Shown in pieces: positions 5,664 through 32,500 of a DNA stretch of 61,790 bases (position 1 is its first letter; every line of letters begins with the position of its first letter). The notes beneath the pieces are model-generated. The model did not search any database and had not been told where the DNA came from. It worked only from the letters and a program-made list of their open reading frames with translations. The stretch lies in contig NZ_JAOVZF010000146.1 of the NCBI RefSeq assembly GCF_026337845.1, positions 185,015 to 246,804 of the forward strand. The letters are read 5' to 3'. Position numbers and translations under genes: made by a program. This stretch comes from Paraliomyxa miuraensis (GTDB taxonomy: Bacteria; Myxococcota_A; Polyangia; Nannocystales; Nannocystaceae).

Positions 5664-6881
5664 TCACCCGAACAACGCAGCGATCCTCGCGTGCTGCGCC
5701 TGGGCGTCGTGATAGCCCAGGTGCATCAGCGCCTTGGTGTAGTCGGGATCGAACAGCACGTAGCTGGCCAGGTCGTTCTCCGGCATCTCGTCGCCCAGCA
5801 TCGAGCGCCGTATCCACCGCGCCATCACCCCGCTGTAGCGCGACAGGTTCGAGCGCCGGATCACGTCGTGGGCGACCTCGCCGAGGTTCTGGCTCGGGCG
5901 GATGAGCAGCACCTCCATGGGCACGTAGGCTCGCCCGTGGCGCCCGGGGATCGCATCGCCGATGCGCGCGCCAAAGTCCGTCCCGTACAGATCCTGCCCG
6001 GCCGCGATGATCTCGTTGAGCCGCTCGATCCGGCGCAGGTCGGCCTCGAGCTTGTCGAGCATGAGCGCGTCGAGCAGCTTGCCGCCCATGAACACCGCGT
6101 TGGGGAAGATCGTGCGCGCCTTCTCCCGCGCGCGCTGCTGGGCCAGCGTCTGCGCATTCTCGTGGCGCAGGCCGATCACCAGCAGCCGGTTGGCCCCCAG
6201 CCGCATCGCCGGCCGCACCGGAGTGTTCTGCCGCAGGCTGCCGTCCACGTAGTAGCGCTCGGCCACCCGCACCGCGGGAAACAGCACGGGGATCGCCGCC
6301 GATGCCAGCGTGTGCGCGGGCGTGATGACGGTGGGCACCGCCTCGCCTCCCGGCTCGGCGGGCCACGGCGGCACCGCCCCTTCCCTGGCCTGCACGAACA
6401 CCGTGGTCTTGCCCGTGGCCAGCTCGGTGGCGCTGCACGCCATCGCATGCAGGTGCCCCTGCTCGATGTTGTCGCGCAGGCCCTTCCAGGGGATCCGCAG
6501 CCGCACGAAGTCCTCGATGTACGAGGAGTCGACCAGACCGCCGATCGTCTCCACGCGCCCGTCCTTGGGCAGGTGGCGGCCGAACAACACCTGCGGCAGG
6601 TGGCGCACCTGCGACCAGCCAAAGCGGTACATCTGGTCGAGATCGAGCTCGCTCCACACCCGCGCCAGCGGCCGGATCTGCGCGCGCGGCCGATCCAGCG
6701 TGGCCGCCACGTACGAGCCGTTGATCGCCCCCACGCTGCTGCCCGTGATCACGTGGAACGGACAGGGGCGCTTGATCTGCTCGCGAATGTAGCGGAGCAC
6801 TCCCACCTCGTAGGCCCCGCGCGCGCCTCCCCCGGAGAGCACCAGGCCCACGCGGGGTACGTCGTCCTTGACGTCGACCAC
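5664..6881 (-). CDS. Patatin-like phospholipase
   Basis: 'GLVLSGGGARGAYEVGVL' oxyanion/Gly-rich motif and 'GSSVGAING' (GxSxG nucleophile). GTG start at 6881. Lies 3 nt after the upstream lipoprotein gene and 25 nt before the kinase start. Confidence 0.85.
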   Translation of the reverse strand: MVDVKDDVPRVGLVLSGGGARGAYEVGVLRYIREQIKRPCPFHVITGSSVGAINGSYVAATLDRPRAQIRPLARVWSELDLDQMYRFGWSQVRHLPQVLFGRHLPKDGRVETIGGLVDSSYIEDFVRLRIPWKGLRDNIEQGHLHAMACSATELATGKTTVFVQAREGAVPPWPAEPGGEAVPTVITPAHTLASAAIPVLFPAVRVAERYYVDGSLRQNTPVRPAMRLGANRLLVIGLRHENAQTLAQQRAREKARTIFPNAVFMGGKLLDALMLDKLEADLRRIERLNEIIAAGQDLYGTDFGARIGDAIPGRHGRAYVPMEVLLIRPSQNLGEVAHDVIRRSNLSRYSGVMARWIRRSMLGDEMPENDLASYVLFDPDYTKALMHLGYHDAQAQHARIAALFG

Positions 6882-6884
6882 TCG

Positions 6885-7652
6885 CTAGAACCCGATCGGA
6901 TAGCAGGGGCAAGCGCCGCCGCGGCAGCTCTCGGGCGGGGCCGGGTTGCCCGGCAGGATGCTCACGTCGCGACCATCGGGGATCCGGCTGGTCATCTGCG
7001 GGTACTGCATCACCAGCTCGTCCACCGTGTCGGTGTCGTCGGGATCCATCGCGATGATCGTGGCGTCCGCGTTGGTGAGGAACGGGATCTCGAGCTTCAT
7101 GCTGCCGTTGATGGGCCCGCTGCTGGTCTCGGTGTCGATGTGGAATTCGATCTCGTTGGCGTACTGGCACGTCGCCGGGTCGAACGCCGAGAACGCGTCG
7201 GCGGGGCAGCCCGTGGGGGCCGAGGCGCCGACCGTCCACGTGAGCACCTGCGCGTCGCAGCGACTGCCCCGGCAGTGGAAGCCGTAGTCGAACTCGTACG
7301 AAGACGCGGACACGCAGGGGTGCAAGCACTGCCGCACCACCACCGGCATGCTCGCGCCCGACTGCACCTCGTGTGGCAGGCAGATCTCCCCGCGATGGAA
7401 CGCGATCACCTTGTTGGAGAAGCTGCCGGGGGCGGGACTCTCGGCCGTGCTCGCGTCGATCTCGGCCGCCACGCACTCGAAGACCTCGAGGTCGCAGACC
7501 TGGCCGCGCCCGCTACAGGGGGTGTTCTCGTCGCATCCCCCCTGATCGACCTGCGGCGCGCAGGCGCCGAGCACCAAGCCGGTCGTGAGCCCAACGCCCA
7601 TCCACCAGCCCCGTACGTCTCTACGCGCTCCTCGTCGTTTGCTGTGCTGCAT
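6885..7652 (-). CDS. Cys-rich lipoprotein, hypothetical (about 255 aa)
   Basis: Internal ATG at 7652 gives 'MQHSKRRGARRDVRGWWMGVGLTTGLVLGAC', a basic n-region plus lipobox. 18 Cys in the mature part. First gene of a lipoprotein-patatin-kinase run on the minus strand. Confidence 0.6.
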   Translation of the reverse strand: MQHSKRRGARRDVRGWWMGVGLTTGLVLGACAPQVDQGGCDENTPCSGRGQVCDLEVFECVAAEIDASTAESPAPGSFSNKVIAFHRGEICLPHEVQSGASMPVVVRQCLHPCVSASSYEFDYGFHCRGSRCDAQVLTWTVGASAPTGCPADAFSAFDPATCQYANEIEFHIDTETSSGPINGSMKLEIPFLTNADATIIAMDPDDTDTVDELVMQYPQMTSRIPDGRDVSILPGNPAPPESCRGGACPCYPIGF

Positions 7653-14399: not shown

Positions 14400-14807
14400 T
14401 TTATAGGTCCCCCGCCCCAAAGGGTTGGGGGTGGCGGTGTTCCGGGGAGACCCGCGGCACCGGTGCCGACCAGGGCCGAGCAACTCACCCCGCTCGGTCT
14501 CGTCCCAAGGATTCGGGTCCTCCAACTCGGGTCCTGCGAATCAGGACGATCACGAAGGTCTCGCTCGACCAGAGGTGCCCCCTTCCTCTGGCCGGCTAGG
14601 CAACGGGTGTCTTCGCTTCCCAACGAGGCACCCCCTCCGCAACCGACTTTGGAGCGTCACCCACGCCCAGCATGCCCCCAAGGGGCCCCCTCGTGATTCG
14701 AAGTCGCTGCGGTCGCCGACTCAACCCCCGACCGATTCCCTCCTCCTCTTCCTCCGGCCCTCACCCCCGGGCCATCCGCTCGCTCGCCTCTTCCGGAGTG
14801 CTCCCCC

Positions 14808-17800
14808 ATGAAGGTCACCCGCCTGTTCACCTCCGATCGCGCCCAACCCTTCGAAGGCATCGAATTCGAGGATCGCAGCTCTCGCATCGCCAACCCCGAC
14901 GGCTCGGTGGTGTTCGAGGCCAAGGACATCGCGGTGCCCAAGGGCTGGTCGCAGGTGGCGGTGGACATCCTGGCGCAGAAGTACTTCCGGAAGGCCGGAA
15001 TCCCCACCCGCCTGCGCCGGGTGCCCGAGCCCGACGTGCCGCAGTGGCTGTGGCGCAGCGAGGCCGACGAGGAGGAGCTGACCGATCTTCCCCCCGACGA
15101 GCGCACGTGCGGCGAGCAGGACAGCCGCGAGGTGTTCGGACGCCTGGCCGGCTGCTGGACCTACTGGGGCTGGCGTCACGGCTACTTCACCGACGAGACC
15201 TCGGCGCGGGCGTTCCACGACGAGATGCTGCACATGCTCGCCACCCAGATGGCGGCGCCCAACAGCCCGCAGTGGTTCAACACGGGGCTGAACTGGGCCT
15301 ACGGCATCACCGGTCCGGCGCAGGGCCACTTCTACTGCGAGCCCCAGACCGGCCACGTGCGTCGCTCCACCGACGCCTACACGCGCCCGCAGCCCCACGC
15401 CTGCTTCATCCAGTCGGTCGGCGACGACCTGGTCTCCGACGGCGGGATCATGGATCTGTGGGTTCGCGAGGCGCGGCTGTTCAAGTACGGCTCGGGCACC
15501 GGCACCAACTTCTCGAGCCTGCGCGCCGAGGGCGAGCCGCTGTCCGGCGGCGGCCGCAGCAGCGGCCTGATGAGCTTCCTCCGCATCGGTGACCGGGCGG
15601 CCGGCGCGATCAAGAGCGGCGGCACCACCCGACGCGCGGCCAAGATGGTCGTGGTCGACATCGATCACCCCGACATCGAGAAGTTCATCGACTGGAAGGT
15701 GGTCGAGGAGCAGAAGGTGGCGGCGCTGGTGGCGGGCTCCAAGGCGTGCAATCAGCACCTGAACGAGGTGCTCGACGCGGCCCACGGTGCCACCGAGCTC
15801 CCCGAGGACCGGCGGTTCGACGCCCAGAGGAACCGGGAGCTGCGCAAGGCCATCCGCGCCGCTCGCCGGGCCCACGTGCCCGAGAACTACATCCAGCGTG
15901 CGCTCCAGCTCGGTGAGCAGGGCGTGACCCAGATCGAGTTCGAGGAGTACGACACCGGCTGGGACTCCGAGGCCTACGGCACCGTCTCGGGCCAGAACTC
16001 GAACAACTCGGTGCGCCTGTCCAACGCGTTCCTCGAGGCGGTCGAGACCGACGGCCAGTGGAAGCTGACGCGCCGCATCGACGGCCAGCCGGCCAAGACC
16101 CTGCGCGCGCGTGAGCTGTGGGACAAGATCGCGATGGGGGCGTGGAGCTGCGCCGACCCCGGCCTGCAGTTCGACACCACCATCAACGAGTGGCACACGT
16201 GCCCGGCCTCGGGGCGGATCAACGCCAGCAATCCGTGCTCGGAGTACATGTTCCTCGACGACACGGCCTGCAACCTGGCGTCGCTGAACCTCATGCGCTT
16301 CGTGGCCGAGGACGGCGCCCTGGACATCGAGGCCATCCGCCACGCCTGTCGGCTGTGGACGATCGCGCTCGAGATCTCGGTGCTGATGGCCCAGTTCCCC
16401 AGCCGGATCATCGCCGAGCTCAGCTACCGCTACCGCACCCTGGGCCTGGGCTACGCCAACCTGGGCACCTACTTCATGGTCTCGGGCCTGCCCTACGACT
16501 CGCCCAAGGCGGTGGCGATCTGTGGGGCGGTCACCGCGGTGATGACGGGCGAGTGCTACGCGACCTCGGCCGAGCTGGCCAAGGAGCTGGGCGCCTTCCC
16601 CGGCTACGAGCGCAACGCCGACTCCATGCTGCGGGTCATTCGCAACCATCGACGCGCGGCCCACGATGCGCCCAAGCGCGAGTACGAGGGCCTGGCGATC
16701 GCGCCCATGGCCATCGATGCCAGCGTCTGCCCCGAGTACCTGCTCACGGCCGCGCGCAAGTCGTGGGACGACGCGCTGCAGGGCGGCCAGGCCCACGGCT
16801 ACCGCAACGCGCAGGTCACCGTGATCGCGCCCACCGGCACCATCGGCCTGTTGATGGATTGCGACACGACCGGCATCGAGCCCGACTTCGCGCTGGTCAA
16901 GTTCAAGAAGCTCGCCGGCGGCGGGTACTTCAAGATCATCAACCAGTCGGTCCCGCGCGCGCTGGCCCACCTCGGCTACGGCCCCGTGGAGATCGACGAC
17001 ATCGTGCGCTTCTGCCGGGGCGCGGGGAGCCTGGTGGGCAGCCCCCGCATCTCGCACGCGCAGCTCAAGGCCAGGGGCTTCACCGAGCTCCAGATCGCCA
17101 AGATCGAGCAGGAGCTGCCGCAGGCGTTCGAGATCGGGTTCGTGTTCAACCGCTGGACCCTGGGCGACGAGTTCTGCACCAAGGCGCTGGGCTTTTCCCT
17201 CGAGCAGCTCTCCGACCCCACCTTCGACATGCTGTCGGCGCTGGGCTTCTCCGCCGAGGACGTGCGCCTGGCCAACGACTACGTGTGCGGCACCATGACC
17301 CTCGAGGGAGCGCCGCACCTGCGGGCGGAGCACCTGCCGGTGTTCGACTGCGCCAACAAGTGCGGTCGCTACGGCAAGCGCTTCATCGCGCCCATGGCCC
17401 ACGTGCACATGATGGCCGCGGCCCAGCCGTTCCTCTCGGGCGCGATCTCCAAGACGATCAACATGCCGGCCGAGGCCTCGGTGGGCGACGTCGAGGAGGT
17501 CTACATGGCCTCGTGGAAGCTCGCGCTCAAGGCCATTGCGCTCTACCGCGACGGCTCCAAGCTCAGCCAGCCCCTGTCGGCCGCCCTGCTCGGCGAGCTC
17601 GAGGACGACATGGAGGACGAGGAGGACGACGACGACGAGCTCACGGTGGGCGACGAGCCCGACGGGCAGCTCCCGCTGGTGGCGCTGACCACCAGCCGTC
17701 CCAAGGTGGTCGAGAAGATCAGCGAGAAGATGGTCTATCGCTACCTCGCCAAGCGCCGCAAGATGCCCGATCGTCGCGGTGGCTACACGCAGAAGGCGAC

Positions 17801-18590
17801 CATCGGCGGCCACAAGGTCTACATCCACACCGGGGAGTACGCCGATGGTTCGCTGGGCGAGATCTTCATCGACATGCACAAGGAGGGCGCCGCCTTCCGC
17901 AGCCTGATGAACTGCTTCGCCATCGCGATCAGCCTGGGCATGCAGTACGGGGTGCCGCTCGAGGAGTTCGTGGATGCGTTCACGTTCACCCGCTTCGAGC
18001 CCAACGGCCCCGTGCAGGGTCACCCGCACATCAAGATGTCGACGAGCATCATCGACTACATCTTCCGCGAGCTGGCCATCAGCTACCTCGGCCGTCACGA
18101 CCTGGCCCACGTGCCACCCGACGATCTGGCGCCCGACACCACGGGCGATGACGACGACATGGAGCGCGGGGTCGACTATCGCGACGAGGAGGTCGTGGAC
18201 GAGCGCGTGGTCGAGGTGCGCGAGACCGAGGAGGTCGTGGAGCAACGGGTGGTCACTCCGGGTCCTCTCAAGCTCACGGTCGCTCCGCCGGCGGCGGCGC
18301 TCCTGGCCGATGCCGAGCGCAAGCGCACGATCGAGTTCGAGGATCGCACTCAGGGAGACGCTCAGGTTCAAGCGGTGGCGGAGCCAGCGCCCGCGGAGGG
18401 CAACGGCCGGAAGGAAAGGCGTCGCGCGGCCAAGCTCAAGGCGGCGGCCAGCCTCAGCGCGGAGGTGTCCAAGGCGCGCGCGCAGGGGTATACAGGGGAT
18501 GCGTGCCCCAACTGCCAGAGTTTCACAATGGTCCGCAATGGCTCATGCCTCAAGTGCGAGACCTGCGGAAGCACCAGCGGGTGCAGCTAA
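14808..18590 (+). CDS. nrdJ: Class II (adenosylcobalamin-dependent) ribonucleotide reductase NrdJ, with a C-terminal Zn-ribbon
   Basis: 1260 aa with the characteristic NrdJ N-terminus '[66 protein letters not shown]', active-site '[18 protein letters not shown]', and C-terminal '[22 protein letters not shown]'. Confidence 0.95.
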
Positions 18591-18660
18591 TCGCTTGCAC
18601 CGCGGCGGTGGAGCGCTAGGACGAGAGTTAAGAGAATCGGCAACTCGCGAGGGGGCACGG

Positions 18661-18690
18661 CGAATGGTCGCCGTGCCCCCTTCGCGTATT
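18661..18690. terminator. Bidirectional intrinsic terminator hairpin between convergent nrdJ and the 374-aa ORF
   Basis: Perfect 13-bp stem GGGGGCACGGCGA/TCGCCGTGCCCCC with a 4-nt loop. T-rich flanks on both strands (ttcgcgtatt on plus; ttgccgattctcttaactctc on minus). Confidence 0.5.
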
Positions 18691-18737
18691 GGCGCATGAC
18701 TGGCCGGGGCTCGCGGCTCGAGTTGAGTGGCGCGAAA

Positions 18738-19862
18738 TTAGTCTTCGGACTCGGAGATCACTCCAAACCCCCCAGGATCGCGCAGAACGTAGCGACGCCC
18801 CTCCTTGATCAAAGTGCCCATTACGCGCACGCGCCGGGCTTCTCGATGAGCAAGCATCGCCTGGGCATAGGCCTCCTGCGACAGCTTCATGTGCACCTTC
18901 GGGGTGCCCGGACGGTCCTCGATCGTAGCGATGAGAACGACGTCACCAGGCTGGGTCGGATCCGTGGCCTCTCGATCGAAGCTGGCAACGTAGCCCTCGA
19001 CCACCGTGCCCGGGGAAGGCGAAGACTCTCGCAGGACGCGGGCGATCTCGCCGAGTGGCTCGAAGACTCGATGGTCGAACGTCACCGAGCGAAACGGCAG
19101 GGACGGCGGTCTTCGTCGAGCGGCCCAGGAGAAGCCTATCACCAGCGTACCGCGACCTGGAGGGCGAAGCCCCGACAGAGCAGCCAGGAAGTTCGAACTC
19201 AAGCCCTTCTCGGCGCCTCTCAGCAGGTGCTTGTCGTCCCCCGCGCTCAGTGCCTCGGCAGCAATGTGCAGCGCGTTGGCCAGCATCGTGGTCACCCTGC
19301 GCGAGAACGGATCCTCGACCTCGGCATCCCCTACCTCGGGGGAAACGGGAACGAGTACGGGCGAGAGATAGCTTCCGATGCGCGAAGGTGCTTCGCGGCA
19401 CGAGGCGATGAACGCCGCGGGTTCCGAGCGAGAGAGTCGGGGATGGTGCGGCAGCGGCTCGATCACGGAGTGTGCCGTGGACAGCAGCAATCGCCTGCGC
19501 TCCTCACGAATGCGGATGCCGTCGTCGACCGAGATCGTACCGTCCTCGGTCTCTGCGCCGTGGTAGCGAAAAGAGAGCACGTCCGCACCCGGCTGGCCCA
19601 GCTCGAAGATGATGGCGCGAGCGGAGCGCTTCTCCACCAGGGTCAGGATCTCGATGAGCTCTGCGACTCGCCGGTCGTAGTCCACGAAGTCCTGGCGCTT
19701 GGGAACCTCGACCGATACCTGCCCCTGCGGGGTGGCTCGCGAGTAGCTCCAGTACGTTGCCGATTCGTTCTCGTCGTCGTCGACCCAGCCCGCGGCAACG
19801 AGATAGCGGCGTAGAGCCGATGGCGGCAGCCGTGCTGCGTCGCTGGCCCAATCCGGCTTCAT
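18738..19862 (-). CDS. Hypothetical 374-aa protein, partner of the upstream DUF4365 gene, with no recognisable domain
   Basis: Internal ATG at 19862 ('MKPDWASDAARLPPSALRRYLVAAGWVDDDENESATYWSY...') overlaps the DUF4365 stop as ATGA. No P-loop or obvious catalytic motif. Local GC about 60%. Confidence 0.55.
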   Translation of the reverse strand: MKPDWASDAARLPPSALRRYLVAAGWVDDDENESATYWSYSRATPQGQVSVEVPKRQDFVDYDRRVAELIEILTLVEKRSARAIIFELGQPGADVLSFRYHGAETEDGTISVDDGIRIREERRRLLLSTAHSVIEPLPHHPRLSRSEPAAFIASCREAPSRIGSYLSPVLVPVSPEVGDAEVEDPFSRRVTTMLANALHIAAEALSAGDDKHLLRGAEKGLSSNFLAALSGLRPPGRGTLVIGFSWAARRRPPSLPFRSVTFDHRVFEPLGEIARVLRESSPSPGTVVEGYVASFDREATDPTQPGDVVLIATIEDRPGTPKVHMKLSQEAYAQAMLAHREARRVRVMGTLIKEGRRYVLRDPGGFGVISESED

Positions 19863-20365
19863 AGGGGTTCCTTGCGGCTCACCTTCACCATGAGCGAGTG
19901 GAGCGCCGTGGGGGAGAGGACCTTTTGCTTGGGGATGCGGACGGTGGTGCTGTCCCTGGTGTCTTCGATGGGACCGCGGCCATGCAAGCTGTCCCAGTAT
20001 GCACATCGACGCAACACCAGGGACTCGGGTGAGTGGCGAACCCACTCGAGCTCTTCCTTGGGCAGCATGAGCACGACCAGGATTCGAGGTGAGCAGGCGT
20101 CGCTTCGCAGCTTGTCGTAGTGGCTCCTGGACAAGGACCAGGAGATGTAGTCATCGTGCACGTGGCGCTGATCGCTCGACGACTTCAGCTGGAGGTCGAG
20201 CTTCGGCCCAGCCAAGATCCCGCCTCCCAGGACGCCCGCAGACCCGATGGTGACGTCGAGGCAGTCGTCGTCCTGGCTCCAAACGCCGAGCTTGAAGCCA
20301 CAACGGGCGGCAATGGCGGCGACGTACGCCTTGCTGAGTTCCTCCCGTTGTTGCTCTGGTGTCAC
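19859..20365 (-). CDS. DUF4365-family protein (restriction-endonuclease-like fold), 168 aa
   Basis: N-terminal 'EELSKAYVAAIAARCGFKL...DDDCLDVTIG...LDLQLKSS' matches the PF14280/DUF4365 signature (a conserved acidic residue plus D..D..(Q/E)xK-like triad). Low-GC islet. Confidence 0.65.
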   Translation of the reverse strand: MTPEQQREELSKAYVAAIAARCGFKLGVWSQDDDCLDVTIGSAGVLGGGILAGPKLDLQLKSSSDQRHVHDDYISWSLSRSHYDKLRSDACSPRILVVLMLPKEELEWVRHSPESLVLRRCAYWDSLHGRGPIEDTRDSTTVRIPKQKVLSPTALHSLMVKVSRKEPL

Positions 20366-20460
20366 GAATGTGGGCTGCCTCGCGCCTCGGTGACGCGATC
20401 CTCTCGCAGCCCAACGTGAAGCTCAAGGCAACGCAAGGAGCACCCACTGTGGCCCATGGC

Positions 20461-21639
<1,179 letters not shown>

Positions 21640-22034
21640 CGCTGGGTTCGATGCCGCCTCGCGCTCGGACGCCGGGCGGTTCGGTACGGACGGACTGGTC
21701 GGTGCCGGTGCCGGAGCCATCGACCGCACACGAGGAGCCGGGGGCATCCGGCGGGCTCGAGTGGGCGGGGCGACATCGGCCATGGTCGTCCGCCAACTTC
21801 GCAAGCATCGTGCCCGTTGTCGTACCGAGCCGTGATCGAAGCGATCCAAGGGGTTGCGGCGGCGGATGGAGGGTGTAGCGCGGTCTGCGGATGACATGAT
21901 GTCAATCGTTCCCGACACGACTTGTCGACGTGTCCGCTCGGAACGAGAACGTCGCGAACGCGCAGCGGATCTTGCGCTGGCCAATTTTTGGACTCCTGGG
22001 GCCCAGGCGTGCTTGGAAGGTGGTCGGAGCAGCC

Positions 22035-22850
22035 ATGGCCATCATCGAGCTGAGCGACGTCACCATGACCTACGGGCGCGGCCCTGCGGCGCCGCCAGGC
22101 GACGCGCAGCGACGGGCCGCCAGGAAGGACGAGCGCCGGGCCGCGCTGCGCGAGGTGAGCGTGGCGGTAGAGGAAGGCGCGTTTGCGGTGCTGATGGGCC
22201 CCTCGGGGGCCGGCAAGAGCACGCTGCTCAAGCTGGTGCTGGCGATGGAGCGGCCCGACGAGGGCACGATCCGCGTGGCAGGGCGCGACATCCATCGGCT
22301 GCGCCGAAGCAGCATCCCGTATCTGCGCCGCAACGTGGGGGCCGTGTTCCAGGACTTCAAGCTGCTGTCCGATGCCTCGCCGCTGGAGAACGTGGCGCTG
22401 GCCCTGCAGGTGCTGGGCATGCCGCCGGGCGAGGTGAGGCGGCGGGCGGCTTCGGCCCTGAGCCAGGTGGAGCTGGATCCCGATGCGCATCGCCCCGCGC
22501 GGTGCCTGTCGGGCGGCGAGCAGCAGCGGGTGGCAATTGCCCGGGCGCTGGCGGGCGAGCCGGCGATCCTGCTGGCCGACGAGCCCACCGGCAACCTCGA
22601 CCCCCGCCTGACCCGAGAGATCCTGGATCTGCTGGCGCGGGTGCGCGAGCGAGGCACCACGGTGCTGCTGGCGACGCACGACCCGTTGGTGCTGGATCAT
22701 CCGGCGCTCACCCAGCAGATCCACCTCGAGCACGGGCGCCTGGTGTCGCTGCATCAGGCGACGCGGGCCTACGGTCGGTGCGAGGACGAGGACGGGATCC
22801 CGGCGATCCTGCCCGCCGCATGGCCCGAACCGGCGGGGGCGGTGGCGTGA
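22035..22850 (+). CDS. ftsE: Cell-division ABC ATPase FtsE
   Basis: Walker A 'GPSGAGKST', ABC signature '[15 protein letters not shown]', Walker B '[11 protein letters not shown]'. Stop overlaps the ftsX start (TGATG). Confidence 0.9.
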
Positions 22851-23788
22851 TGGACCGGAGCACGATGAGCCACAGCTTGATGAGCCGGTTCCGACCGTTG
22901 TTCTCGTTGGGCTACGTGGTGAGCCGCGGGCTGCGGGGCATGGCCCAGGCACCAGTGGTGCAGCTGTTGGCGGTGAGCACGATGGCGGTGTGCATGCTGC
23001 TGCTGGGCGTGGTGATGCTGGTGTGGAGCAACGCGCAGGGCATCGTGCATGCGTGGGGGCTGGACGTGCCGGTGACGGTGTACCTGGTGGACCACGCCGA
23101 GCCTGCGGCGGTGGATCTGATGGTGGAGCGCATCGGGGCGTTGCCCGAGGTGACCCGCGTGGAGCGGGTGTCGTCGGAGCAGGCGCTGGAGCGCTTGGCC
23201 GAGGGCCTGGGCGAGGACGGTGCCTTGGTGGAGGGGCTCGATCCCGCGGTGCTGCCACCATCGCTGGAGATCGAGCTGGCCCCGGGCATCGACCCCGACT
23301 TCGGGCACGTGCTGGCGGAGGGGCTGGCCGAGCAGCCGATGGTGGAGGAAGTGGCGGTGGCGGGAGCCTGGGCCGGCCGCGCGCACGATCTGCTGCGCAC
23401 GCTGGAGGACCTGGCGCTGGGCGCGGGGCTGCTGGTGAGCCTGGCCTGCATGGCGATCGTGTGGAGCACGATCCGGCTGGGGGTCTACGCGCGGCGGGCC
23501 GAGCTGCAGATCCTGCGGCTGGTGGGGGGCACCGATCGCTTCGTGCACGGGCCGTTCGTGTTCGAAGGAATGGTGCAGGGAGCGCTGGGCGCTGGGCTGG
23601 CCCTGGGCATCCTTTGGGTGGGCTTCGATGCGGCGGCGCCGTTCCTCGAGCGTGGGCTGTCGCTGCTGTTTGCGGGGGGTGCCTTGCGCTTCTTCTCGCC
23701 GCAGGAGCTGGCGATCGGCGTGGCGCTGGGCGCTGGGCTGGGCCTGTTGGGCGCTCGGGCGGCGGTCGGTCGCTACGCGGAGGTCTAG
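22850..23788 (+). CDS. ftsX: Cell-division permease FtsX
   Basis: 4-TM topology with a large first periplasmic loop. Lies immediately after ftsE with a 1-nt overlap. Confidence 0.85.
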   Translation: MDRSTMSHSLMSRFRPLFSLGYVVSRGLRGMAQAPVVQLLAVSTMAVCMLLLGVVMLVWSNAQGIVHAWGLDVPVTVYLVDHAEPAAVDLMVERIGALPEVTRVERVSSEQALERLAEGLGEDGALVEGLDPAVLPPSLEIELAPGIDPDFGHVLAEGLAEQPMVEEVAVAGAWAGRAHDLLRTLEDLALGAGLLVSLACMAIVWSTIRLGVYARRAELQILRLVGGTDRFVHGPFVFEGMVQGALGAGLALGILWVGFDAAAPFLERGLSLLFAGGALRFFSPQELAIGVALGAGLGLLGARAAVGRYAEV

Positions 23789-23794
23789 GACGAA

Positions 23795-24973
23795 ATGGCA
23801 CGGCTCGCACGAATGCTCGGTGCACCGCGGAGCCCTCGACGGGAGGGACGGAGGCGTCGGCTGGGCTGGGCGCTGGCCGGGCTCGGCATGGCGCTGTCGG
23901 TGGCGGTGCCCGTGCACGCGCGCGTGGGCTGGAAGGAAGCGGCCAGCCGACTCGAACGGGCGATCGACGCGGAGCTGGGCCTGACCCGGCAAGCGGTGGA
24001 TCTCGAGCGAGCGGTGGCGACCCTGGAGCACGAGCAGGATGGCGCGAAGTACGGGGCGGCCATGCTCGACCACGCGGGGCGCGAGAGCATGCGCAGGCTC
24101 GATGCCTATCGGGCCGGACGAGCGGAGCGCGAGCGGGTGGTGCGGCAGCGTGCCCGCGCGATGGCGAAGGCGGCCCGAGGGGGCATTGCCCGGATCGTGC
24201 TCGACGAGGGAGATGGCGATCGGGATCGAGCCGATCGGCTGGCGCGTGGACGCGATCTGCGATGGCTGGTGCGGCACGATCTGCGCGAGCTGTCGGCCTA
24301 CCAGCGCGCCGAGCTGCGCGCACGCAACGAGCTGCTCGATGCCGAGCGCCAGCTCCAGGCGCTGTCGGTGCTCGCGACGGTGCACGACGTGCAGGGCGAG
24401 CTCATCGGCGCGGCGCAGGGGGCCACGGGGGCGGCGTTGGCCCGAGCCCACGGCGAGCGCGATGCGCTGCTGTCGAAGGCGTCACCACGGGCCCGCGCGC
24501 GGGCGGCTCAGAAGACGCGCCTGGCCGAGCTGCGCGCGAGTCGGGACGAGCTCGAGCGGCTGCAGCACACGGGGGGCGAGGGGCTGGTTCGGCCGGTCCG
24601 TGGTCGGGTGGTGGGGCGGTTCGGTCACTACTCCGATCCGATCCTGCGCCTGCCCATGCTGCGCAACGGCGTGGAGCTGGCCGCGCGCCGCGACGAGGAC
24701 GTACGCGCGCCCGCGGACGGCCAGGTGGTGATGGTGGCCGAGCTGCCGGGCTTCGAGCAGGTGGTGGTGATCGATCTCGGCGATGGCCGACTGGTGATGC
24801 TGGGGCGGCTGTGGAAGGCCACGGTGGCCGAGGGTGATCCGGTGACGGCGGGTGAGATGATCGCGTCGGCGGCCCCCAAGGTCCTCGACGACGGGCTGGG
24901 CTCGAGCGTGTACCTGGAGCTGCGCCACGGGGACAAGCCGGTCGATCCGGCGCCGCTCTTGCGGCGAAGGTGA
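23795..24973 (+). CDS. M23/LytM-family peptidase-domain protein with N-terminal coiled coil (EnvC-like murein hydrolase activator)
   Basis: Signal peptide, long coiled-coil region, and C-terminal LytM block 'RNGVELAARRDEDVRAPADGQVVMVAELPGFEQVVVIDLGDGRLVMLG'. Canonical position after ftsEX. Confidence 0.8.
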   Translation: MARLARMLGAPRSPRREGRRRRLGWALAGLGMALSVAVPVHARVGWKEAASRLERAIDAELGLTRQAVDLERAVATLEHEQDGAKYGAAMLDHAGRESMRRLDAYRAGRAERERVVRQRARAMAKAARGGIARIVLDEGDGDRDRADRLARGRDLRWLVRHDLRELSAYQRAELRARNELLDAERQLQALSVLATVHDVQGELIGAAQGATGAALARAHGERDALLSKASPRARARAAQKTRLAELRASRDELERLQHTGGEGLVRPVRGRVVGRFGHYSDPILRLPMLRNGVELAARRDEDVRAPADGQVVMVAELPGFEQVVVIDLGDGRLVMLGRLWKATVAEGDPVTAGEMIASAAPKVLDDGLGSSVYLELRHGDKPVDPAPLLRRR

Positions 24974-28975: not shown

Positions 28976-30199
28976 TCAGGTCACGGCTGGCTCGCGAAGG
29001 AGACCCGGGCTCCACGCCAGCCCCACCGCGAGCAGGCTGACCACGCCGCCGAGCACGAAGTTGGGACCGTAGCCGAGCCAGTGCGCGGTGAACCCACCGA
29101 GCGCGGCGGAGCCCAGCGAGGCGAGCACCACGAGCGAGGCCTGCAGGGTGTAGTCGGTGGCCGCGTGCTCGGGGCGGCAGCGGTCCATCATCAGGGTGAA
29201 CAGGGCGGCGGTGGCCAGGCCGCTGGCGAGGTGTTCGAACACGACGGGGCCGTAGAGCTGCATGGGCCCTGCGCTGGGATCCACGCTGAGCGCGTAGCTG
29301 GCGACCGAGAGCGCCTGCAGGGTGCCGAACCCGAGCAGCGCACGCCTTCGCCCCAGGCGCTCCACCAAGGCGCCGCCGAGCAGCGCGCCGCACAGGCCCG
29401 CGCAAAAGCCCACCGTGCCGAGCAGGAGCCCCAGGTCGGCCAGGCCCAGGCCGCGGTCGACGTAGAACGGGCGCAGCATGCTGGTGCCGAGATAGTCGCC
29501 GGCCTTGTAGACGACCAGCACCGCGAGCCATCGTCGTCGCGCGGGGTCGGCCGCGAAGCGGCGCAGTGAGTCGAGCACGCTGGGCTCGGAGGTCGTGGGG
29601 CGCGGGCGCGGTGGCTCGCAAAATCGCCACACGGGGATGGTCGCGAGCAGCAGGATCCCGGCGGCGCAGGTGAAGGTCCACGCCCAGCCCCAGTGCTCGA
29701 ATGCGACGAGCAAGGCGCCGCCGCCCACGATCATCCCCACGCGATAGCCGGCCACCTGTACTCCGTTGCCCAGGCCGCGCTCGTGCCGAGCCAACAGATC
29801 GACGGCGAGGCCGTCGGTGGCGATGTCCTGGGTGGCGGCCACCAGGTTGGTGAGCAGCACGCCGAGCATCAGCCAGGACAGCGAGTGCGAGGGATCGGCG
29901 AGGGCGAGCGAGAGCAGCACTACCACGCTGGTCAGCTGCAGCGGCACGATCCACGCCCGTCGCGAGCCATGGCGATCGACCATGGGCGCCCACAGGGCCT
30001 TGAGCGCCCATGGCAGGGCGAGCAGGGTGCTGCTTCCGATCACCGCCAGCGACACGCCTTGCTGGCGCATCACCGCGGGCAGGGCCTGGGTGAAGAACCC
30101 GAACGGCAGGCCCTGCGAGAGGTAGAGCGCGGTGAGCAGGCCGAGCTTGCGCGGAGTGGTGAGCGACACGGGCGAGGCTATTTGGATCGGGCTCATCAT
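28976..30199 (-). CDS. MFS transporter (AmpG/LplT-like)
   Basis: Internal ATG at 30199 (MMSPIQIASP...). 12 predicted TM helices. 'LALPWALKALWAPMVDRHG' is a typical AmpG-family motif. ATGA overlap with the upstream TetR gene. Confidence 0.8.
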   Translation of the reverse strand: MMSPIQIASPVSLTTPRKLGLLTALYLSQGLPFGFFTQALPAVMRQQGVSLAVIGSSTLLALPWALKALWAPMVDRHGSRRAWIVPLQLTSVVVLLSLALADPSHSLSWLMLGVLLTNLVAATQDIATDGLAVDLLARHERGLGNGVQVAGYRVGMIVGGGALLVAFEHWGWAWTFTCAAGILLLATIPVWRFCEPPRPRPTTSEPSVLDSLRRFAADPARRRWLAVLVVYKAGDYLGTSMLRPFYVDRGLGLADLGLLLGTVGFCAGLCGALLGGALVERLGRRRALLGFGTLQALSVASYALSVDPSAGPMQLYGPVVFEHLASGLATAALFTLMMDRCRPEHAATDYTLQASLVVLASLGSAALGGFTAHWLGYGPNFVLGGVVSLLAVGLAWSPGLLREPAVT

Positions 30200-30795
30200 C
30201 CACGCCTCCCGGTCAGCGTGCGCCGCAACGAGCGGCGCAGCTCGGGGGCGGCGCTGCCCGGGGGGACGACCTTGGTGCTGGCCGCGAGCTGGTAGTAGCC
30301 CTCGATCGTGGCCAGGGTGAGCACGGCCAGGCCCTGGGCATCGACGCGCACGTCGTGCTCGCGGGCGACCTCGTGCAGCAGCGCGGTGAGCTGCTGCAGG
30401 CGGCGCTCGACCACCGCCCGGTAGCGCTCGCGCACGTCGTCGTCCTTGAGGGCCTGGGCGCCGATCCACACCCAGGCGGCCACCGCGTCGGGCTCGGCAT
30501 CGTCGCCCTGGGCGAGGTGGGCGTCGATCCAGGCCTCGAGCCGCCCCCACGCCCCGCGGCGGCGGGCCGACTGGCGCTCGTATCGGGAGGTAACCAGCAC
30601 CTCGAGGTGGTCGAGCAGCGCGTGGAGGATCTCCGCCTTGTTGCCGAAGTGGTGGTGCAGCAGGCCCGCGGCGAGCCCGGCCTCCTTGGCGATGGCCTGG
30701 ACGGAGGCGCCGTCGAAGCCGGTGCGCGCCATCACCCGGAGGGTGGCCTCGACGATCTGCAGGCGGCGCTCGGAGGCGTTGGAGGGGCGGCCCAT
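30196..30795 (-). CDS. TetR/AcrR-family transcriptional regulator
   Basis: HTH 'ERRLQIVEATLRVMARTGFDGASVQAIAKEAGLAAGLLHHHFGNKAEIL'. Start ATG 30795 (MGRPSNASE...). Confidence 0.8.
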   Translation of the reverse strand: MGRPSNASERRLQIVEATLRVMARTGFDGASVQAIAKEAGLAAGLLHHHFGNKAEILHALLDHLEVLVTSRYERQSARRRGAWGRLEAWIDAHLAQGDDAEPDAVAAWVWIGAQALKDDDVRERYRAVVERRLQQLTALLHEVAREHDVRVDAQGLAVLTLATIEGYYQLAASTKVVPPGSAAPELRRSLRRTLTGRRG

Positions 30796-30832
30796 AAGTT
30801 GATTGTATAACCAACCAATGAACGACGGAGAA

Positions 30833-30850
30833 GGACCCCGCAAGTGCGGG
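30833..30850 (-). terminator. GC hairpin (CCCCGCA-agt-GCGGGG) downstream of abiEii, possible operon terminator
   Basis: 7-bp perfect stem followed on the minus strand by a moderately T-rich tract (ttctccgtcgttcattggtt). Confidence 0.3.
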
Positions 30851-30968
30851 GACTCCGCGGCTCTTCAGGAGGCCGCGCATGCTCGATGGGACGGGTGATA
30901 CGAAACGCCGGTGATTATGAGCGATGTTTAAACGTTTCGTATCGTACGTCCGATTGTCTCCACGACCA

Positions 30969-31895
30969 CTACTCCGGATTCGATCGCCACGGACCGCCCG
31001 CTTGCCATCGAGTCGCGGGAAACGCCGAAGCCTGGGCGGCCATCCGAAGCGGCATCTCGACGAATGCGGCGATCGTGGTGATCGTGTCTGACAAGCTGCC
31101 AGCATCGACCGCACCCGACTTGCGAACGAAGCCGGTCCACTGAACGTTCTTGCCTGCGTCATCGGCAAACGCCGTCGTGAGTGCAAGTGGAAGTCCCCGG
31201 GGCAGTGGCGTTCGTCGTCGCTCGAATGTTGTTCGAATGGCGCGCGACAGCACTCGTCCGTCGAAGTCGAACATCCTCGCGATCAAGGCGAGGTCGTAGA
31301 AGTCCTTCATTCGGCTGTTGGCCATTCCGAGCTGCACCATGGCTTCGAGCTTCTCTGCGACGACCGTCTCGCGCGGGTACACTCGCAGCCGAGGCGCAGG
31401 GAAATCGAGTAGCGACGGAAGTTCGACCAGCACCGCCTTCGGCGTGATCGCATCCCCGAAGCCCACATCGACCTGTAGCCGCAGCTTCGCGGACGTGACG
31501 TGGGCGATGACCTCGACCCGGACACCACCGTATACTTGGTCCTCGCGAATGGGTCCGACTTCCATGGAATTCGGATCGAACACGACACCGTCCTCGACGG
31601 TGGGCGCCAAGACCTGCGTGAAGACCTCGCGAATGTGCGCCTCACTGCAATCGCCGAGGCCAAGAAGATCCACGTCTCGCGTGGCTCGGTGGGGCTTGCC
31701 GGTCCAGAACGTGAACAGAGCAGCGCCCTTGAGCACGAAGGAGCGCCCATGCGGCGATGCTCCGAGTCGGAAGAGGAGGCGCTCATTGGCATAGCGCGTG
31801 AGCAGACGCTGAAAGTCCTCGCCGTGCGCGCGCGCCAGCCGAAGCAGACGACCACGTACCGACGCGCCACGATCCCTGGGCGGCTGTTTCGTCAT
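30969..31895 (-). CDS. AbiEii/AbiGii-family nucleotidyltransferase toxin (type IV TA system)
   Basis: Internal ATG 31895 (MTKQPPRDRGASVRGRLLRLA...). DUF1814/AbiEii hallmarks: 'FVLKGAALFTFWTGKPHRATRDVDLLGLG', 'GVRVEV'. ATGA overlap with the abiEi stop. Local GC about 60%. Confidence 0.8.
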   Translation of the reverse strand: MTKQPPRDRGASVRGRLLRLARAHGEDFQRLLTRYANERLLFRLGASPHGRSFVLKGAALFTFWTGKPHRATRDVDLLGLGDCSEAHIREVFTQVLAPTVEDGVVFDPNSMEVGPIREDQVYGGVRVEVIAHVTSAKLRLQVDVGFGDAITPKAVLVELPSLLDFPAPRLRVYPRETVVAEKLEAMVQLGMANSRMKDFYDLALIARMFDFDGRVLSRAIRTTFERRRTPLPRGLPLALTTAFADDAGKNVQWTGFVRKSGAVDAGSLSDTITTIAAFVEMPLRMAAQASAFPATRWQAGGPWRSNPE

Positions 31896-32500
31896 GCAAG
31901 CGCCTCGACGTACGGACGCATGACCGTCTGGATGCGGTCGGCACGGGCCGCATCCATCAGAGCGTCGAGCCCGCTTCGCCGCTGGCGAAGGTAGGCCCGA
32001 AGGGCTGCGATCGCGACGTCGAGACCGACGTGGCGTCGGTATCGAAAGCAGTCGGCGACGGTCTTGGCCGGAGTCGTGAGCCGCAGCTCCACACCCTCGA
32101 TCGTTCGTGTCTCGATGCCATGCTCGCGCGCGGCACCGCTGGCACGAACGACCTCGAGCCTTGGGTACTCGATCTTCGGCGTACGCGCGTGCCCGTCGAT
32201 GAGTATCCACACCGCGTGCGGTGCCTCGGTGGTCAGCCCGTGGACCTGCAGTGCGCTCAGCAGACAGATGATGGCGTGAGGCACACGCTTGGCCACCTGG
32301 GCGAGTGAGTGGAGCTCGGTGACGGGTGCGTCGACGAGTCGATAGAGTCCGCGGTCGACCTGCTCGAGCACGCCACGTTCACAGAGGCGTCCGAGATAGG
32401 CACGTGGGATACCCGCTCGATCGAGGTCGCGCGCGCGTATCGGCCCCAGCTGGGCGAGCCGGAGCAGCGCTTCGGTCTTCGTTGGCGGGTTCTGCGGCAT
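31892..32500 (-). CDS. AbiEi-family antitoxin/transcriptional regulator (type IV TA system)
   Basis: 202 aa with an N-terminal wHTH region and a C-terminal domain typical of AbiEi_4. Sits immediately upstream of, and translationally coupled to, the AbiEii gene. Confidence 0.8.
   Translation of the reverse strand: MPQNPPTKTEALLRLAQLGPIRARDLDRAGIPRAYLGRLCERGVLEQVDRGLYRLVDAPVTELHSLAQVAKRVPHAIICLLSALQVHGLTTEAPHAVWILIDGHARTPKIEYPRLEVVRASGAAREHGIETRTIEGVELRLTTPAKTVADCFRYRRHVGLDVAIAALRAYLRQRRSGLDALMDAARADRIQTVMRPYVEALA

What the first reader, a model, noticed from the sequence alone, without database searches (positions are those of the whole stretch)
18738..20365. Low-GC two-gene cassette: DUF4365 protein translationally coupled to an unannotatable 374-aa partner, a candidate novel defence or toxin module
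Two co-directional ORFs overlap as ATGA (19859-19862). They sit in a ~1.7 kb patch whose GC (~60%) is clearly below the ~70% of the flanks. The patch is wedged between the nrdJ bidirectional terminator and the stop codon of a Ser/Thr kinase gene, the layout expected of an inserted islet. The upstream protein carries the DUF4365 (PF14280) signature of a restriction-endonuclease-like fold (EELSKAYVAAIAARCGF... D..D..LQLK). The partner has no P-loop, no nuclease or protease motif and no family I can place. DUF4365 occurs as an accessory nuclease-like module in abortive-infection and defence contexts. I do not recognise this pairing as any named system.
Basis: partly seen in the sequence, partly recalled or inferred. 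Interest (0 to 1): 0.72.

Follow-up and report, generated by a model that had tools for sequence, protein, structure and literature searches.

The report
Catalogued, untested nuclease defence gene pair
The two overlapping genes are real and look like a mobile phage-defence or toxin module built around a DNA-cutting enzyme, but the pairing is already listed, untested, in the PADLOC defence database as candidate PDC-M02, so it is a new example of a known candidate rather than a new system.

Summary
Two minus-strand genes, A (19859-20365, 168 aa) and B (18738-19862, 374 aa), overlap by ATGA. They lie in a patch of 64.4% GC, not about 60%, against a window mean of 70.3%. A is a DUF4365/DREN PD-(D/E)xK nuclease (Pfam 1.1e-17) with its D..D..DxQxK residues intact. 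B has no Pfam family but is not an orphan: a profile search finds 5092 clusters. Both proteins match PADLOC's PDC-M02A and PDC-M02B models over their full length (2e-53, 1e-82). PDC-M02 is a two-gene "phage defence candidate" from Payne et al. 2024, with 894 RefSeq instances and no experimental test, so the pairing is catalogued.

New here:
- An AlphaFold model of B shows a HicA-like N-domain, an alpha/beta middle and a C-terminal OB fold, with no catalytic motif.
- The pair is co-inherited with a conserved NTGA overlap across phyla, on plasmids and in Mycobacterium abscessus prophages.
- In the Paraliomyxa lineage it has sat beside nrdJ through deep divergence (B dS 0.8-1.5), so the insertion is old.
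- A was inactivated three separate times while B stayed intact.

Best reading: an abortive-infection or toxin-antitoxin-like module in which B controls nuclease A. Interest is moderate.

The parts
19859..20365 (-). Gene A: stand-alone 168-aa DUF4365/DREN-type PD-(D/E)xK nuclease (PADLOC PDC-M02A), the presumed effector or toxin
   Evidence: Pfam PF14280 at 1.1e-17, residues 8-159. PDC-M02A at 2.1e-53 over the full length. phrog_27905 at 5e-24. 220 homologues of about 165-170 aa. dN/dS 0.10-0.25.
20183..20272 (-). Codons 32-61 of A, carrying the predicted active site D32, D37, D57-x-Q59-x-K61
   Evidence: D32, D37, Q59 and K61 are invariant and D57 is present in 14 of 15 loci. They match the DUF4365 D..D..QxK signature. 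Mutating those residues abolishes toxicity or activity in EAT16 (PMC11297309) and in TmuRE Q62/K64 (PMC10810196).
19859..19862 (-). ATGA overlap: the start codon of B overlaps the stop codon of A (translational coupling)
   Evidence: Sequence. The same NTGA junction occurs in 14 of 15 distinct loci from several phyla.
18738..19862 (-). Gene B: 374-aa partner (PADLOC PDC-M02B), no Pfam family, the presumed sensor or regulator of A
   Evidence: PDC-M02B at 1.2e-82 over the full length. 5092 clusters at E<=1e-3, nearly all 365-400 aa. AF2 model with pLDDT 86. dN/dS about 0.1.
19593..19862 (-). B residues 1-90: HicA-like (dsRBD-like alpha-beta-beta-beta-alpha) domain without a conserved catalytic His
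19017..19592 (-). B residues 91-282: alpha/beta middle domain of uncertain fold, holding most of the conserved polar residues (D94, S164, R188, S222, N224, W246)
18741..19016 (-). B residues 283-374: OB-fold domain
18650..18681 (.). Perfect 14-bp stem with a 4-nt loop between the convergent stop codons of nrdJ and B; probably a bidirectional terminator
   Evidence: the repeat finder I1. Terminator function is inferred. There is no T tract, so the consensus scan missed it.
20366..20460 (-). 95-nt spacer between the kinase stop codon and the start of A, with a GAGG about 12 nt upstream of the GTG; the promoter is unknown
   Evidence: Sequence. No sigma-70 consensus. No Rfam match.

Best explanation
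The cassette is a member of PADLOC's two-gene phage defence candidate PDC-M02, a horizontally mobile conflict module. Gene A encodes a small stand-alone DREN/DUF4365 PD-(D/E)xK nuclease and is the toxic effector. Gene B is translationally coupled to A and probably made with it as a complex. B has no catalytic motif and carries three binding-type domains: a HicA-like N-domain, an alpha/beta middle and a C-terminal OB fold. B acts as the sensor or regulator that keeps A silent until a trigger appears, such as a phage or plasmid nucleic acid or protein. A then becomes active, probably by forming oligomers as DREN does in SPARDA, and degrades DNA non-specifically, which aborts the infection.

Shown here: family membership, the intact active-site residues of A, the domain folds of B, the conserved gene coupling, co-inheritance of the two genes, presence on mobile elements and in defence islands, and repeated loss of A.

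Inferred: a physical A:B complex, the nature of the trigger, the activation step, and the anti-phage phenotype itself.
For: - PDC-M02A and PDC-M02B HMMs hit full length at 2e-53 and 1e-82. The PDC set was derived from genes embedded in BREX, DISARM or type I R-M systems, and this cassette was counted 894 times.
- A hits Pfam DUF4365, and D32, D37, D57, Q59 and K61 are conserved.
- The DUF4365/DREN domain is an experimentally shown non-specific nuclease. It is toxic in E. coli. The isolated domain is a monomer and inactive, and it becomes active as a tetramer when its sensor assembles (PMC10810196, PMC12205087, 10.1101/2025.04.08.647717, PMC11297309).
- B shows HicA-like and OB folds and no catalytic motif.
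- B lies directly downstream of A at every fetched locus whose contig extends past A. The NTGA overlap is present in 14 of 15 loci. A and B pairwise identities correlate at r = 0.94.
- In L008-L011 the pair sits in a defence island with a PIN pair, the SIR2 candidate PDC-S65 and type I HsdR.
- The pair forms genes 1-2 at the left end of M. abscessus prophages and occurs on 10 plasmids.
- GC3 is below the flanks in every host.
- A was inactivated three separate times, by a 98-nt deletion in L002, a near-complete deletion in L023 and an IS1 insertion in L112, with B intact each time. This fits a costly effector.
- The only other low-GC patch of the window is an AbiE system.
Against: - No member of PDC-M02 has been tested. 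I found no paper naming it, and Payne et al. call the 145 PDCs untested.
- In this genome the neighbours are housekeeping genes (nrdJ, a kinase, ftsEX), not defence genes, and there are no integration scars, tRNA or flanking repeats.
- The cassette has stayed beside nrdJ through deep divergence (B dS 0.8-1.5), which is unusually stable for a defence gene.
- A is not detectably similar by HMMER to the solved SPARDA DREN chains. Transferring the tetramer-activation mechanism to A is therefore an analogy within one Pfam family.
- B remains under purifying selection in two lineages without A (dN/dS 0.11 for L002 against L023). This suggests B may have a role of its own.
Confidence: 0.55

Rival explanations
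1. A classical type II-like toxin-antitoxin (addiction) pair. A is a nuclease toxin and B is a stoichiometric protein antitoxin that neutralises it. The main role of the pair is to stabilise itself and the mobile element that carries it, not to sense phage.
For: - Two translationally coupled genes with the toxin first, as in hicAB or higBA.
- Carried on plasmids and prophages.
- DUF4365 proteins are toxic in E. coli (PMC11297309).
- Only A is ever found broken. B is intact in all 18 distinct loci and stays under purifying selection even without A, as expected for an antitoxin that cannot be lost first and that may persist as an orphan 'anti-addiction' gene.
Against: - B is 2.2 times larger than A, has three domains, and has no HTH or RHH autoregulatory domain.
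- The loss asymmetry rests on 3 events, and most loci were found by searching for intact B. It is not statistically significant: 0 of 7 B losses in A-ascertained loci against 2 of 11 A losses in B-ascertained loci.
- The pair has been stable on the chromosome beside nrdJ for a long time, where addiction gives no obvious benefit.
- Many TA-like pairs are in fact abortive-infection systems, so this rival overlaps the main explanation.
Confidence: 0.25
2. A domesticated housekeeping nuclease and DNA/RNA-binding factor pair, for example in repair or recombination, or nucleic-acid turnover linked to dNTP supply by nrdJ, that has no conflict function in this lineage.
For: - Conserved position next to nrdJ in five related lineages, counting this genome, over deep divergence (B dS 0.8-1.5).
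- Purifying selection on both genes.
- No neighbouring defence genes and no mobility scars.
Against: - Distribution is patchy. The pair is absent downstream of nrdJ in the next-nearest relatives L025 and L026.
- It sits in unrelated contexts in Enhygromyxa, Nannocystis, L021 and L115.
- It occurs on plasmids, in prophages and in defence islands.
- A was lost three times without loss of the lineage.
- GC3 is persistently below host level.
Confidence: 0.08
3. B is the active component, for example an unrecognised RNA-binding toxin or enzyme built on its HicA-like domain, and A is an accessory or immunity nuclease.
For: - The HicA fold is that of an mRNA interferase toxin.
- B is retained intact and under constraint where A is gone.
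- The conserved polar residues D61, R65, E77, D94, S164, R188, N224 and H339 could form an active site that has not been recognised.
Against: - There is no conserved His in the HicA-like domain and no HicA profile hit in 50 family members.
- No catalytic fold was matched in the middle domain.
- A carries a complete nuclease active site of a type known to be toxic.
Confidence: 0.07

Closest known systems
PADLOC phage defence candidate PDC-M02 (Payne, Hughes, Fineran, Jackson 2024, bioRxiv 10.1101/2024.01.29.577857; cassette CAS_00021, FAM_01850>>FAM_00842)
   Same: Both proteins match the A and B HMMs over their full length, and the gene order, strand and adjacency are the same. This is the family the cassette belongs to.
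   Different: Nothing structural differs. This copy is not embedded in a BREX, DISARM or R-M system, which was the criterion used to discover the family. The family itself has no experimental validation or described mechanism.
SPARDA (short prokaryotic Argonaute + DREN-APAZ)
   Same: The effector belongs to the same Pfam family (DUF4365/DREN) and has the same D..D..QxK active site. It is likewise paired with a non-catalytic partner that may bind nucleic acid. The likely logic is also shared: the nuclease is silent until the sensor is engaged.
   Different: There is no Argonaute (MID-PIWI) gene and no APAZ domain. A is a free 168-aa protein, not a fusion. B has HicA-like and OB domains instead. 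A is too diverged for HMMER to link it to the solved SPARDA chains.
HicAB type II toxin-antitoxin
   Different: The HicA-like domain is the first of three domains in the larger, downstream protein. It lacks the catalytic His and any HicA profile signal. There is no HicB. The partner is a PD-(D/E)xK nuclease.
Divona (integron-cassette defence gene with DUF4365 plus an Mrr-like nuclease fused to crr6) and the eCIS toxin EAT16 (DUF4365)
   Same: Both use a DUF4365 nuclease domain as a defence or toxin effector.
   Different: Both are single-gene fusions with different partner domains, and neither has a B-type protein.
AbiE (AbiEi/AbiEii), present about 11 kb away in the same window
   Same: A two-gene, low-GC, toxin-antitoxin-type abortive-infection islet in the same chromosome region.
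   Different: The proteins are unrelated: a nucleotidyltransferase toxin and a winged-helix (wHTH) antitoxin.

Membership tests
PADLOC PDC-M02 (two-gene phage defence candidate) | A protein matching a PDC-M02A HMM | tested here: met
   Best hit PDLC04278 at 2.1e-53, residues 1-166 of 168 against model positions 1-165 of 167. In all, 25 PDC-M02A models hit.
PADLOC PDC-M02 (two-gene phage defence candidate) | A protein matching a PDC-M02B HMM | tested here: met
   Best hit PDLC04298 at 1.2e-82, residues 8-371 of 374 against model positions 10-376 of 380. In all, 36 models hit, and the 25 shown are all PDC-M02B.
PADLOC PDC-M02 (two-gene phage defence candidate) | A and B adjacent on one strand in the order A>>B | tested here: met
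   4-nt ATGA overlap at 19859-19862. The supplement of Payne et al. lists the order as FAM_01850>>FAM_00842.
PADLOC PDC-M02 (two-gene phage defence candidate) | Embedded in or next to BREX, DISARM or type I R-M (the discovery criterion, not required for detection) | tested here: not met
   The window neighbours are nrdJ, a Ser/Thr kinase and ftsEX. Homologous loci L008-L011 do sit beside HsdR genes and PDC-S65.
PADLOC PDC-M02 (two-gene phage defence candidate) | Confers protection against phage | not testable with these tools
   The family is listed as untested, and no paper mentions PDC-M02.
Pfam PF14280 DUF4365 / DREN PD-(D/E)xK nuclease | Profile match above the gathering score | tested here: met
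   64.8 bits against a cut-off of 24.3, profile positions 1-136 of 139.
Pfam PF14280 DUF4365 / DREN PD-(D/E)xK nuclease | Conserved D..D...QxK active-site signature | tested here: met
   D32, D37, D57, Q59 and K61 are present. D32, D37, Q59 and K61 are invariant in 15 loci and 34 homologues. The signature is as described in PMC11297309 and PMC10810196.
Pfam PF14280 DUF4365 / DREN PD-(D/E)xK nuclease | Metal-dependent nuclease activity | not testable with these tools
   Needs biochemistry.
SPARDA (short pAgo + DREN-APAZ) | Adjacent short Argonaute (MID-PIWI) gene | tested here: not met
   B hits only PDC-M02B models in the 25 of 36 PADLOC hits shown (the database also holds pAgo models), and it has no Pfam family. 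The B folds are HicA-like and OB.
SPARDA (short pAgo + DREN-APAZ) | DREN fused to an APAZ domain | tested here: not met
   A is 168 aa and the DUF4365 match covers residues 8-159.
HicAB toxin-antitoxin | HicA fold | tested here: met
HicAB toxin-antitoxin | HicA_toxin sequence profile and conserved catalytic His | tested here: not met
   No PF07927 hit in B or in 50 family members at E<=1. There is no conserved His among residues 1-90.
HicAB toxin-antitoxin | HicB antitoxin partner | tested here: not met
   The partner is a DUF4365 nuclease.
Generic type II toxin-antitoxin | The toxin is neutralised by direct binding of a co-expressed antitoxin that usually carries a DNA-binding autoregulatory domain | tested here: inconclusive
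   The coupling and the loss asymmetry fit. No HTH or RHH domain was found in B. Binding and neutralisation cannot be tested here.

The most novel reading that the evidence does not exclude
PDC-M02 is a genuine, widespread abortive-infection system that amounts to an Argonaute-free SPARDA. In it, a free DREN nuclease is licensed by a new kind of guide-independent sensor, made of a HicA-like domain, an alpha/beta domain and an OB fold. The sensor recognises a phage nucleic-acid or protein cue and assembles the nuclease into its active oligomer. If true, this would define a new sensor family of more than 5000 clusters at 50% identity and a second, independent route to activating DREN.
Probability: 0.25. 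Interest if true: 0.65.

Novelty: new member of a known kind. Interest (0 to 1): 0.4.

Why it matters
For the genome scan, this finding should be marked down from "unrecognised pairing" to "instance of PADLOC candidate PDC-M02".

The family itself still deserves attention. It is abundant: 894 RefSeq cassettes and more than 5000 clusters of B at 50% identity. It spans Myxococcota, Actinobacteria, Alphaproteobacteria, spirochaetes and planctomycete-like genomes, and it rides on plasmids and prophages. It has never been tested.

Its effector belongs to the DREN family, whose collateral nuclease activity in SPARDA is being developed for nucleic-acid detection. A compact, guide-free way of switching on that nuclease would interest both researchers working on mechanism and those developing applications.

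The domain map of B and the repeated loss of A give concrete hypotheses: A is the costly effector, and B is a non-catalytic controller. Mutagenesis targets follow directly: A D32, D37, D57, Q59 and K61, and B W26, D61, R65, D94, S164, R188, N224 and H339.

Tried and rejected
- **Sequence searches of solved structures.** Nothing was found for B (profile, best E 1.8) or for A (single sequence and profile). A could therefore not be aligned directly to the SPARDA DREN structures.
- **Family libraries.** NCBIfam gave nothing significant. Pfam on 50 diverse B members gave only scattered noise.
- **Genome-contig scans.** The closer alignment found only 4 Nannocystaceae-type loci and not the source genome.
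- **Metagenome scan with the nrdJ C-terminus.** It returned 80 loci. None of them carries A or B, and only L025-L027 are reasonably close. L025 and L026 have different genes downstream of nrdJ, so they do not give a clean empty-site comparison.
- **Megablast of an enterobacterial-type copy** (L107) against 5426 complete E. coli genomes found no match.
- **Further viral scans** with three B proteins only recovered loci already in hand.
- **Consensus promoter and terminator scan** was uninformative for this high-GC organism.
- **Mobility and RNA checks.** There is no Rfam match, no tRNA, and no flanking direct or inverted repeats beyond chance-size matches.
- **The downstream SIR2 gene in L008-L011** was considered as a third component and rejected. 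It is a separate PADLOC candidate, PDC-S65, and is absent from the window and from most loci.
- **A functional link to the neighbouring kinase** was considered and rejected. The kinase is absent from most loci, and in the closest relative L113 a TPR protein takes its place.
- **The plus-strand 372-aa ORF at 18696-19814**, antisense to B, is taken as a high-GC artefact, because all homology and selection signals lie in the minus-strand frame.
Full report
**1. Observation**

The region holds two co-directional minus-strand genes at the stated coordinates. A runs 19859-20365 (168 aa, GTG start). B runs 18738-19862 (374 aa), counted from the ATG inside the ATGA at 19859-19862. Homologues and family HMMs begin at MTP.QQREE for A and at M/VKPDW for B, which fixes both start codons.

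The patch is 64.4% GC, with A at 62.7% and B at 65.1%. The window mean is 70.3% with sd 2.4%, which puts the patch in the lowest 0.7% of 1.6-kb windows. GC3 is 0.81 for A and 0.76 for B, against 0.94 for nrdJ and 0.85-0.91 for the kinase, depending on the start used.

B converges on a class II ribonucleotide reductase gene (nrdJ, 14808-18590). A perfect 14-bp hairpin lies between the two stop codons at 18650-18681. A starts 95 nt downstream of the stop codon of a Ser/Thr kinase gene on the same strand. The window's B protein is identical to a hypothetical protein of Paraliomyxa miuraensis, so the source is that marine myxobacterium.

**2. What the proteins are**

*Protein A.* A matches Pfam DUF4365 at 1.1e-17 over nearly the whole protein. 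An alignment of 34 homologues shows E8, D32, D37, D57, Q59 and K61 as invariant. Across 15 independent loci D32, D37, Q59 and K61 never change.

This is the D..D..QxK signature of the family. Mutating it abolishes the toxicity of the eCIS toxin EAT16 (PMC11297309), and Q62A/K64A inactivates the SPARDA effector TmuRE (PMC10810196). DUF4365 is the DREN nuclease of SPARDA, a PD-(D/E)xK, Mg/Mn-dependent, non-specific nuclease. The isolated domain is a monomer and inactive. It becomes active only as a tetramer on the target-induced Argonaute filament (PMC12205087; bioRxiv 10.1101/2025.04.08.647717).

*Protein B.* B has no significant Pfam or NCBIfam hit, but it is not an orphan. A profile search of 1.84 billion representatives found 5092 clusters at E<=1e-3 and 1475 at E<=1e-30. 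Nearly all of the 150 best hits are 365-400 aa and match along their full length.

Residues conserved across 146 diverse members are W26, D61, R65, E77, D94, G108, A130, G163-S164, R188, S222, N224, W246, G290, G306, Y332, A335, A338-H339 and G349. There is no P-loop and no recognisable nuclease or protease motif.

AlphaFold models are confident: pLDDT 86 for the full length and 89 for residues 1-282. Fold searches give three parts:
- The middle domain gives only weak, generic ferredoxin-like or RAMP-like matches.

**3. The pairing is already catalogued**

Against PADLOC-DB v2, A hits 25 PDC-M02A models (best 2.1e-53). B hits 36 models (best 1.2e-82), and the 25 shown are all PDC-M02B. The best hit to each protein spans nearly its full length.

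PDCs are "phage defence candidates" defined by Payne et al. 2024 (bioRxiv 10.1101/2024.01.29.577857). They started from genes embedded in BREX, DISARM or type I R-M systems and then collected homologous cassettes across RefSeq. Their supplement lists CAS_00021 (FAM_01850>>FAM_00842), count 894, "Assign as candidate PDC-M02". The 145 PDCs are explicitly untested. No paper in the library mentions PDC-M02 by name.

It remains true that nobody has shown what the pair does.

**4. Linkage, mobility and context**

*Linkage.* I collected 21 distinct loci that carry the pair or B. HMM scans were run on the first 18. Three more, L113/L114 and L115, came later through gene tables and tblastn.
- B lies immediately downstream of A at every locus whose contig extends past A.
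- The stop-start junction is ATGA, GTGA or TTGA in 14 of the 15 loci examined.
- Pairwise identities of A and B correlate at r = 0.94 over 105 locus pairs.

*Hosts.* These include Enhygromyxa salina, Nannocystis and Nannocystaceae MAGs, TARA marine Myxococcales, a planctomycete-like genome, and a 5.5-Mb genome in which the pair sits between a PIN pair, the SIR2 candidate PDC-S65 and type I HsdR genes.

*Mobile elements.* The pair is on ten plasmids of Methylobacterium, Gluconobacter, Phaeobacter, Paenarthrobacter, Streptomyces, Entomospira and Pigmentibacter. It forms genes 1-2 at the left end of Mycobacterium abscessus prophages prophi102-2 and prophiGD54-1, next to a WXG toxin cassette. Both proteins hit small PHROG families.

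*Composition.* In every host the two genes have lower GC3 than their neighbours, for example 0.40/0.41 against 0.57-0.58 in a 52%-GC MAG. Low GC is therefore a property of the cassette and not evidence of recent arrival.

**5. History at this locus**

Four metagenomic relatives carry the cassette convergent with nrdJ, so with this genome the position is shared by five lineages. Full-length nrdJ is 85-87% identical in three of them, and an end fragment in L113 is 88.6% identical.

| Locus | B identity | State of A | Upstream gene |
|---|---|---|---|
| L113 | 86% | intact | TPR protein |
| L020 | 77% | intact | kinase |
| L002/L003 | 78% | internal deletion | kinase |
| L023/L024 | 76% | almost entirely deleted | kinase |

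Synonymous divergence of B among these lineages is 0.8-1.5, so the insertion is old. The next-nearest nrdJ relatives, L025 and L026 at 75-77%, have unrelated genes downstream of nrdJ and no A or B. L021 (B 74%) and L115 (B 61%) carry the pair in other contexts. There is no tRNA, flanking repeat or Rfam element at the window locus.

**6. Recurrent loss of A**

A has been inactivated three separate times while B stayed intact:
- L002/L003 has a 98-nt internal deletion that removes the GVLGGG..KLDLQLK core and shifts the frame.
- L023/L024 has lost all of A except its last ~35 nt, leaving B 124 nt after the kinase gene.
- L112, a low-GC IMG/VR contig, has an IS1 element (InsA/InsB ORFs) inserted in A.

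B is intact in all 18 scanned loci. It has dN/dS of about 0.1, including between the two A-less lineages (0.11). Where A is intact its dN/dS is 0.10-0.25.

This pattern is what one expects if A is the costly or toxic partner and B is harmless or protective. The caveat is that most loci were found by searching for intact B. In A-ascertained loci B is broken in 0 of 7, and in B-ascertained loci A is broken in 2 of 11. The asymmetry is suggestive and not significant.

**7. Most likely mechanism**

A is a DREN-type non-specific nuclease and the effector. B is made in step with A through translational coupling. It has no catalytic motif and has three domains of kinds that typically bind nucleic acids or proteins, so it is the controller.

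Two versions remain open:
- B is a sensor that assembles or releases A on a phage cue. DREN elsewhere needs induced tetramerisation to become active.
- B is an antitoxin-like inhibitor, and infection compromises its hold on A.

Both versions give abortive-infection-type defence, and they differ in whether A alone is toxic. I give about 0.55 to the combined [quoted passage not shown]. I give about 0.25 to a mainly addictive TA role, and small weights to a domesticated housekeeping role or to B being the effector.

The A:B complex, the trigger, the activation step and the phenotype are all inferred.

**8. Comparison with known systems**

- The cassette is a member of PDC-M02. All detectable criteria are met.
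- It is not SPARDA. There is no Argonaute and no APAZ domain, and A is free-standing and too diverged for HMMER to link it to the solved SPARDA chains. It may still work like SPARDA at the effector end.
- It is not HicAB. The similarity is of fold only.
- Divona and EAT16 share only the DUF4365 domain.

**9. Verdict**

The novelty class is a new member of a known, catalogued and untested kind. Interest is moderate at 0.4. A specialist running PADLOC would recognise the pair at once.

The family is nonetheless large, mobile and mechanistically unexplored, and it uses a nuclease of current biotechnological interest. The domain map of B and the repeated loss of A are new, testable leads.

Noticed in passing
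window 30800-32500 (minus strand; ORFs 31892..32500 and 30969..32210): The only other strongly low-GC patch of the window (0.59-0.66 GC) is an AbiE type IV toxin-antitoxin / abortive-infection system. AbiEi hits Pfam PF13338 at 3.9e-12 and PADLOC at 1.4e-75. AbiEii hits PF08843 at 1.4e-42 and PADLOC at 5.2e-112, and that domain starts at residue ~109-144 of the listed ORF, so the true start is probably near 31900. A TetR regulator lies beside it at 30196..30843. Both low-GC patches in this 62-kb window are therefore two-gene defence-type modules.
   Followed up: partly
L002 9596-10004 (= L003 682-1087); L023 5321-5445 (= L024); L112 5992-7275: The nuclease gene A has been inactivated three separate times while B stays intact. 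L002 has a 98-nt deletion that removes the catalytic core. L023 has a near-complete deletion that leaves ~35 nt of A's 3' end. L112 has an IS1 insertion (InsA/InsB ORFs at 6243-6940). B still shows dN/dS of about 0.11 between the two A-less lineages.
   Followed up: yes
L008-L011, 7631/7637-9403 (downstream of B): In one bacterial lineage a 580-588-aa SIR2_2 protein follows B directly, with a 2-nt gap or a 4-nt overlap. It is PADLOC candidate PDC-S65 (9e-217) and has weaker similarity to Argonaute-associated SIR2 effectors. The same island holds a PIN pair, DpnII-MboI and fragmented type I HsdR genes.
   Followed up: partly
L105 (MW584173.1 Mycobacterium phage prophi102-2) 398-2160: The A+B pair forms genes 1 and 2 at the extreme left end of two Mycobacterium abscessus prophages. 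Both genes are annotated as hypothetical and sit next to a WXG-motif polymorphic toxin cassette. This could be prophage-encoded defence in a clinically relevant host.
   Followed up: partly
window 18696-19814 (+), 14721-18371 (-), 21501-24323 (-) and others: Very long ORFs run antisense to, or out of frame with, real genes. Examples are a 372-aa ORF antisense to B and a 1216-aa ORF antisense to nrdJ. These are the usual artefacts of a 70%-GC genome and should not be called as genes.
   Followed up: no
L113 3-2345 versus window 20461-21984: In the closest metagenomic relative (B 86% identical) the gene upstream of A is a TPR-repeat protein and not the Ser/Thr kinase seen in the window, L002, L020 and L023. 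The nrdJ side of the junction is therefore more stable than the upstream side.
   Followed up: partly
L021/L022 (Logan SRR9673766, SRR25212038): The B copy in L021 is as close to those of L020, L002 and L023 (dS 0.6-0.8) as they are to each other. It nevertheless lies in a different neighbourhood, between UbiA and a 622-aa protein on one side and an acyltransferase on the other. Either the cassette moved within this clade or the host genome was rearranged.
   Followed up: no
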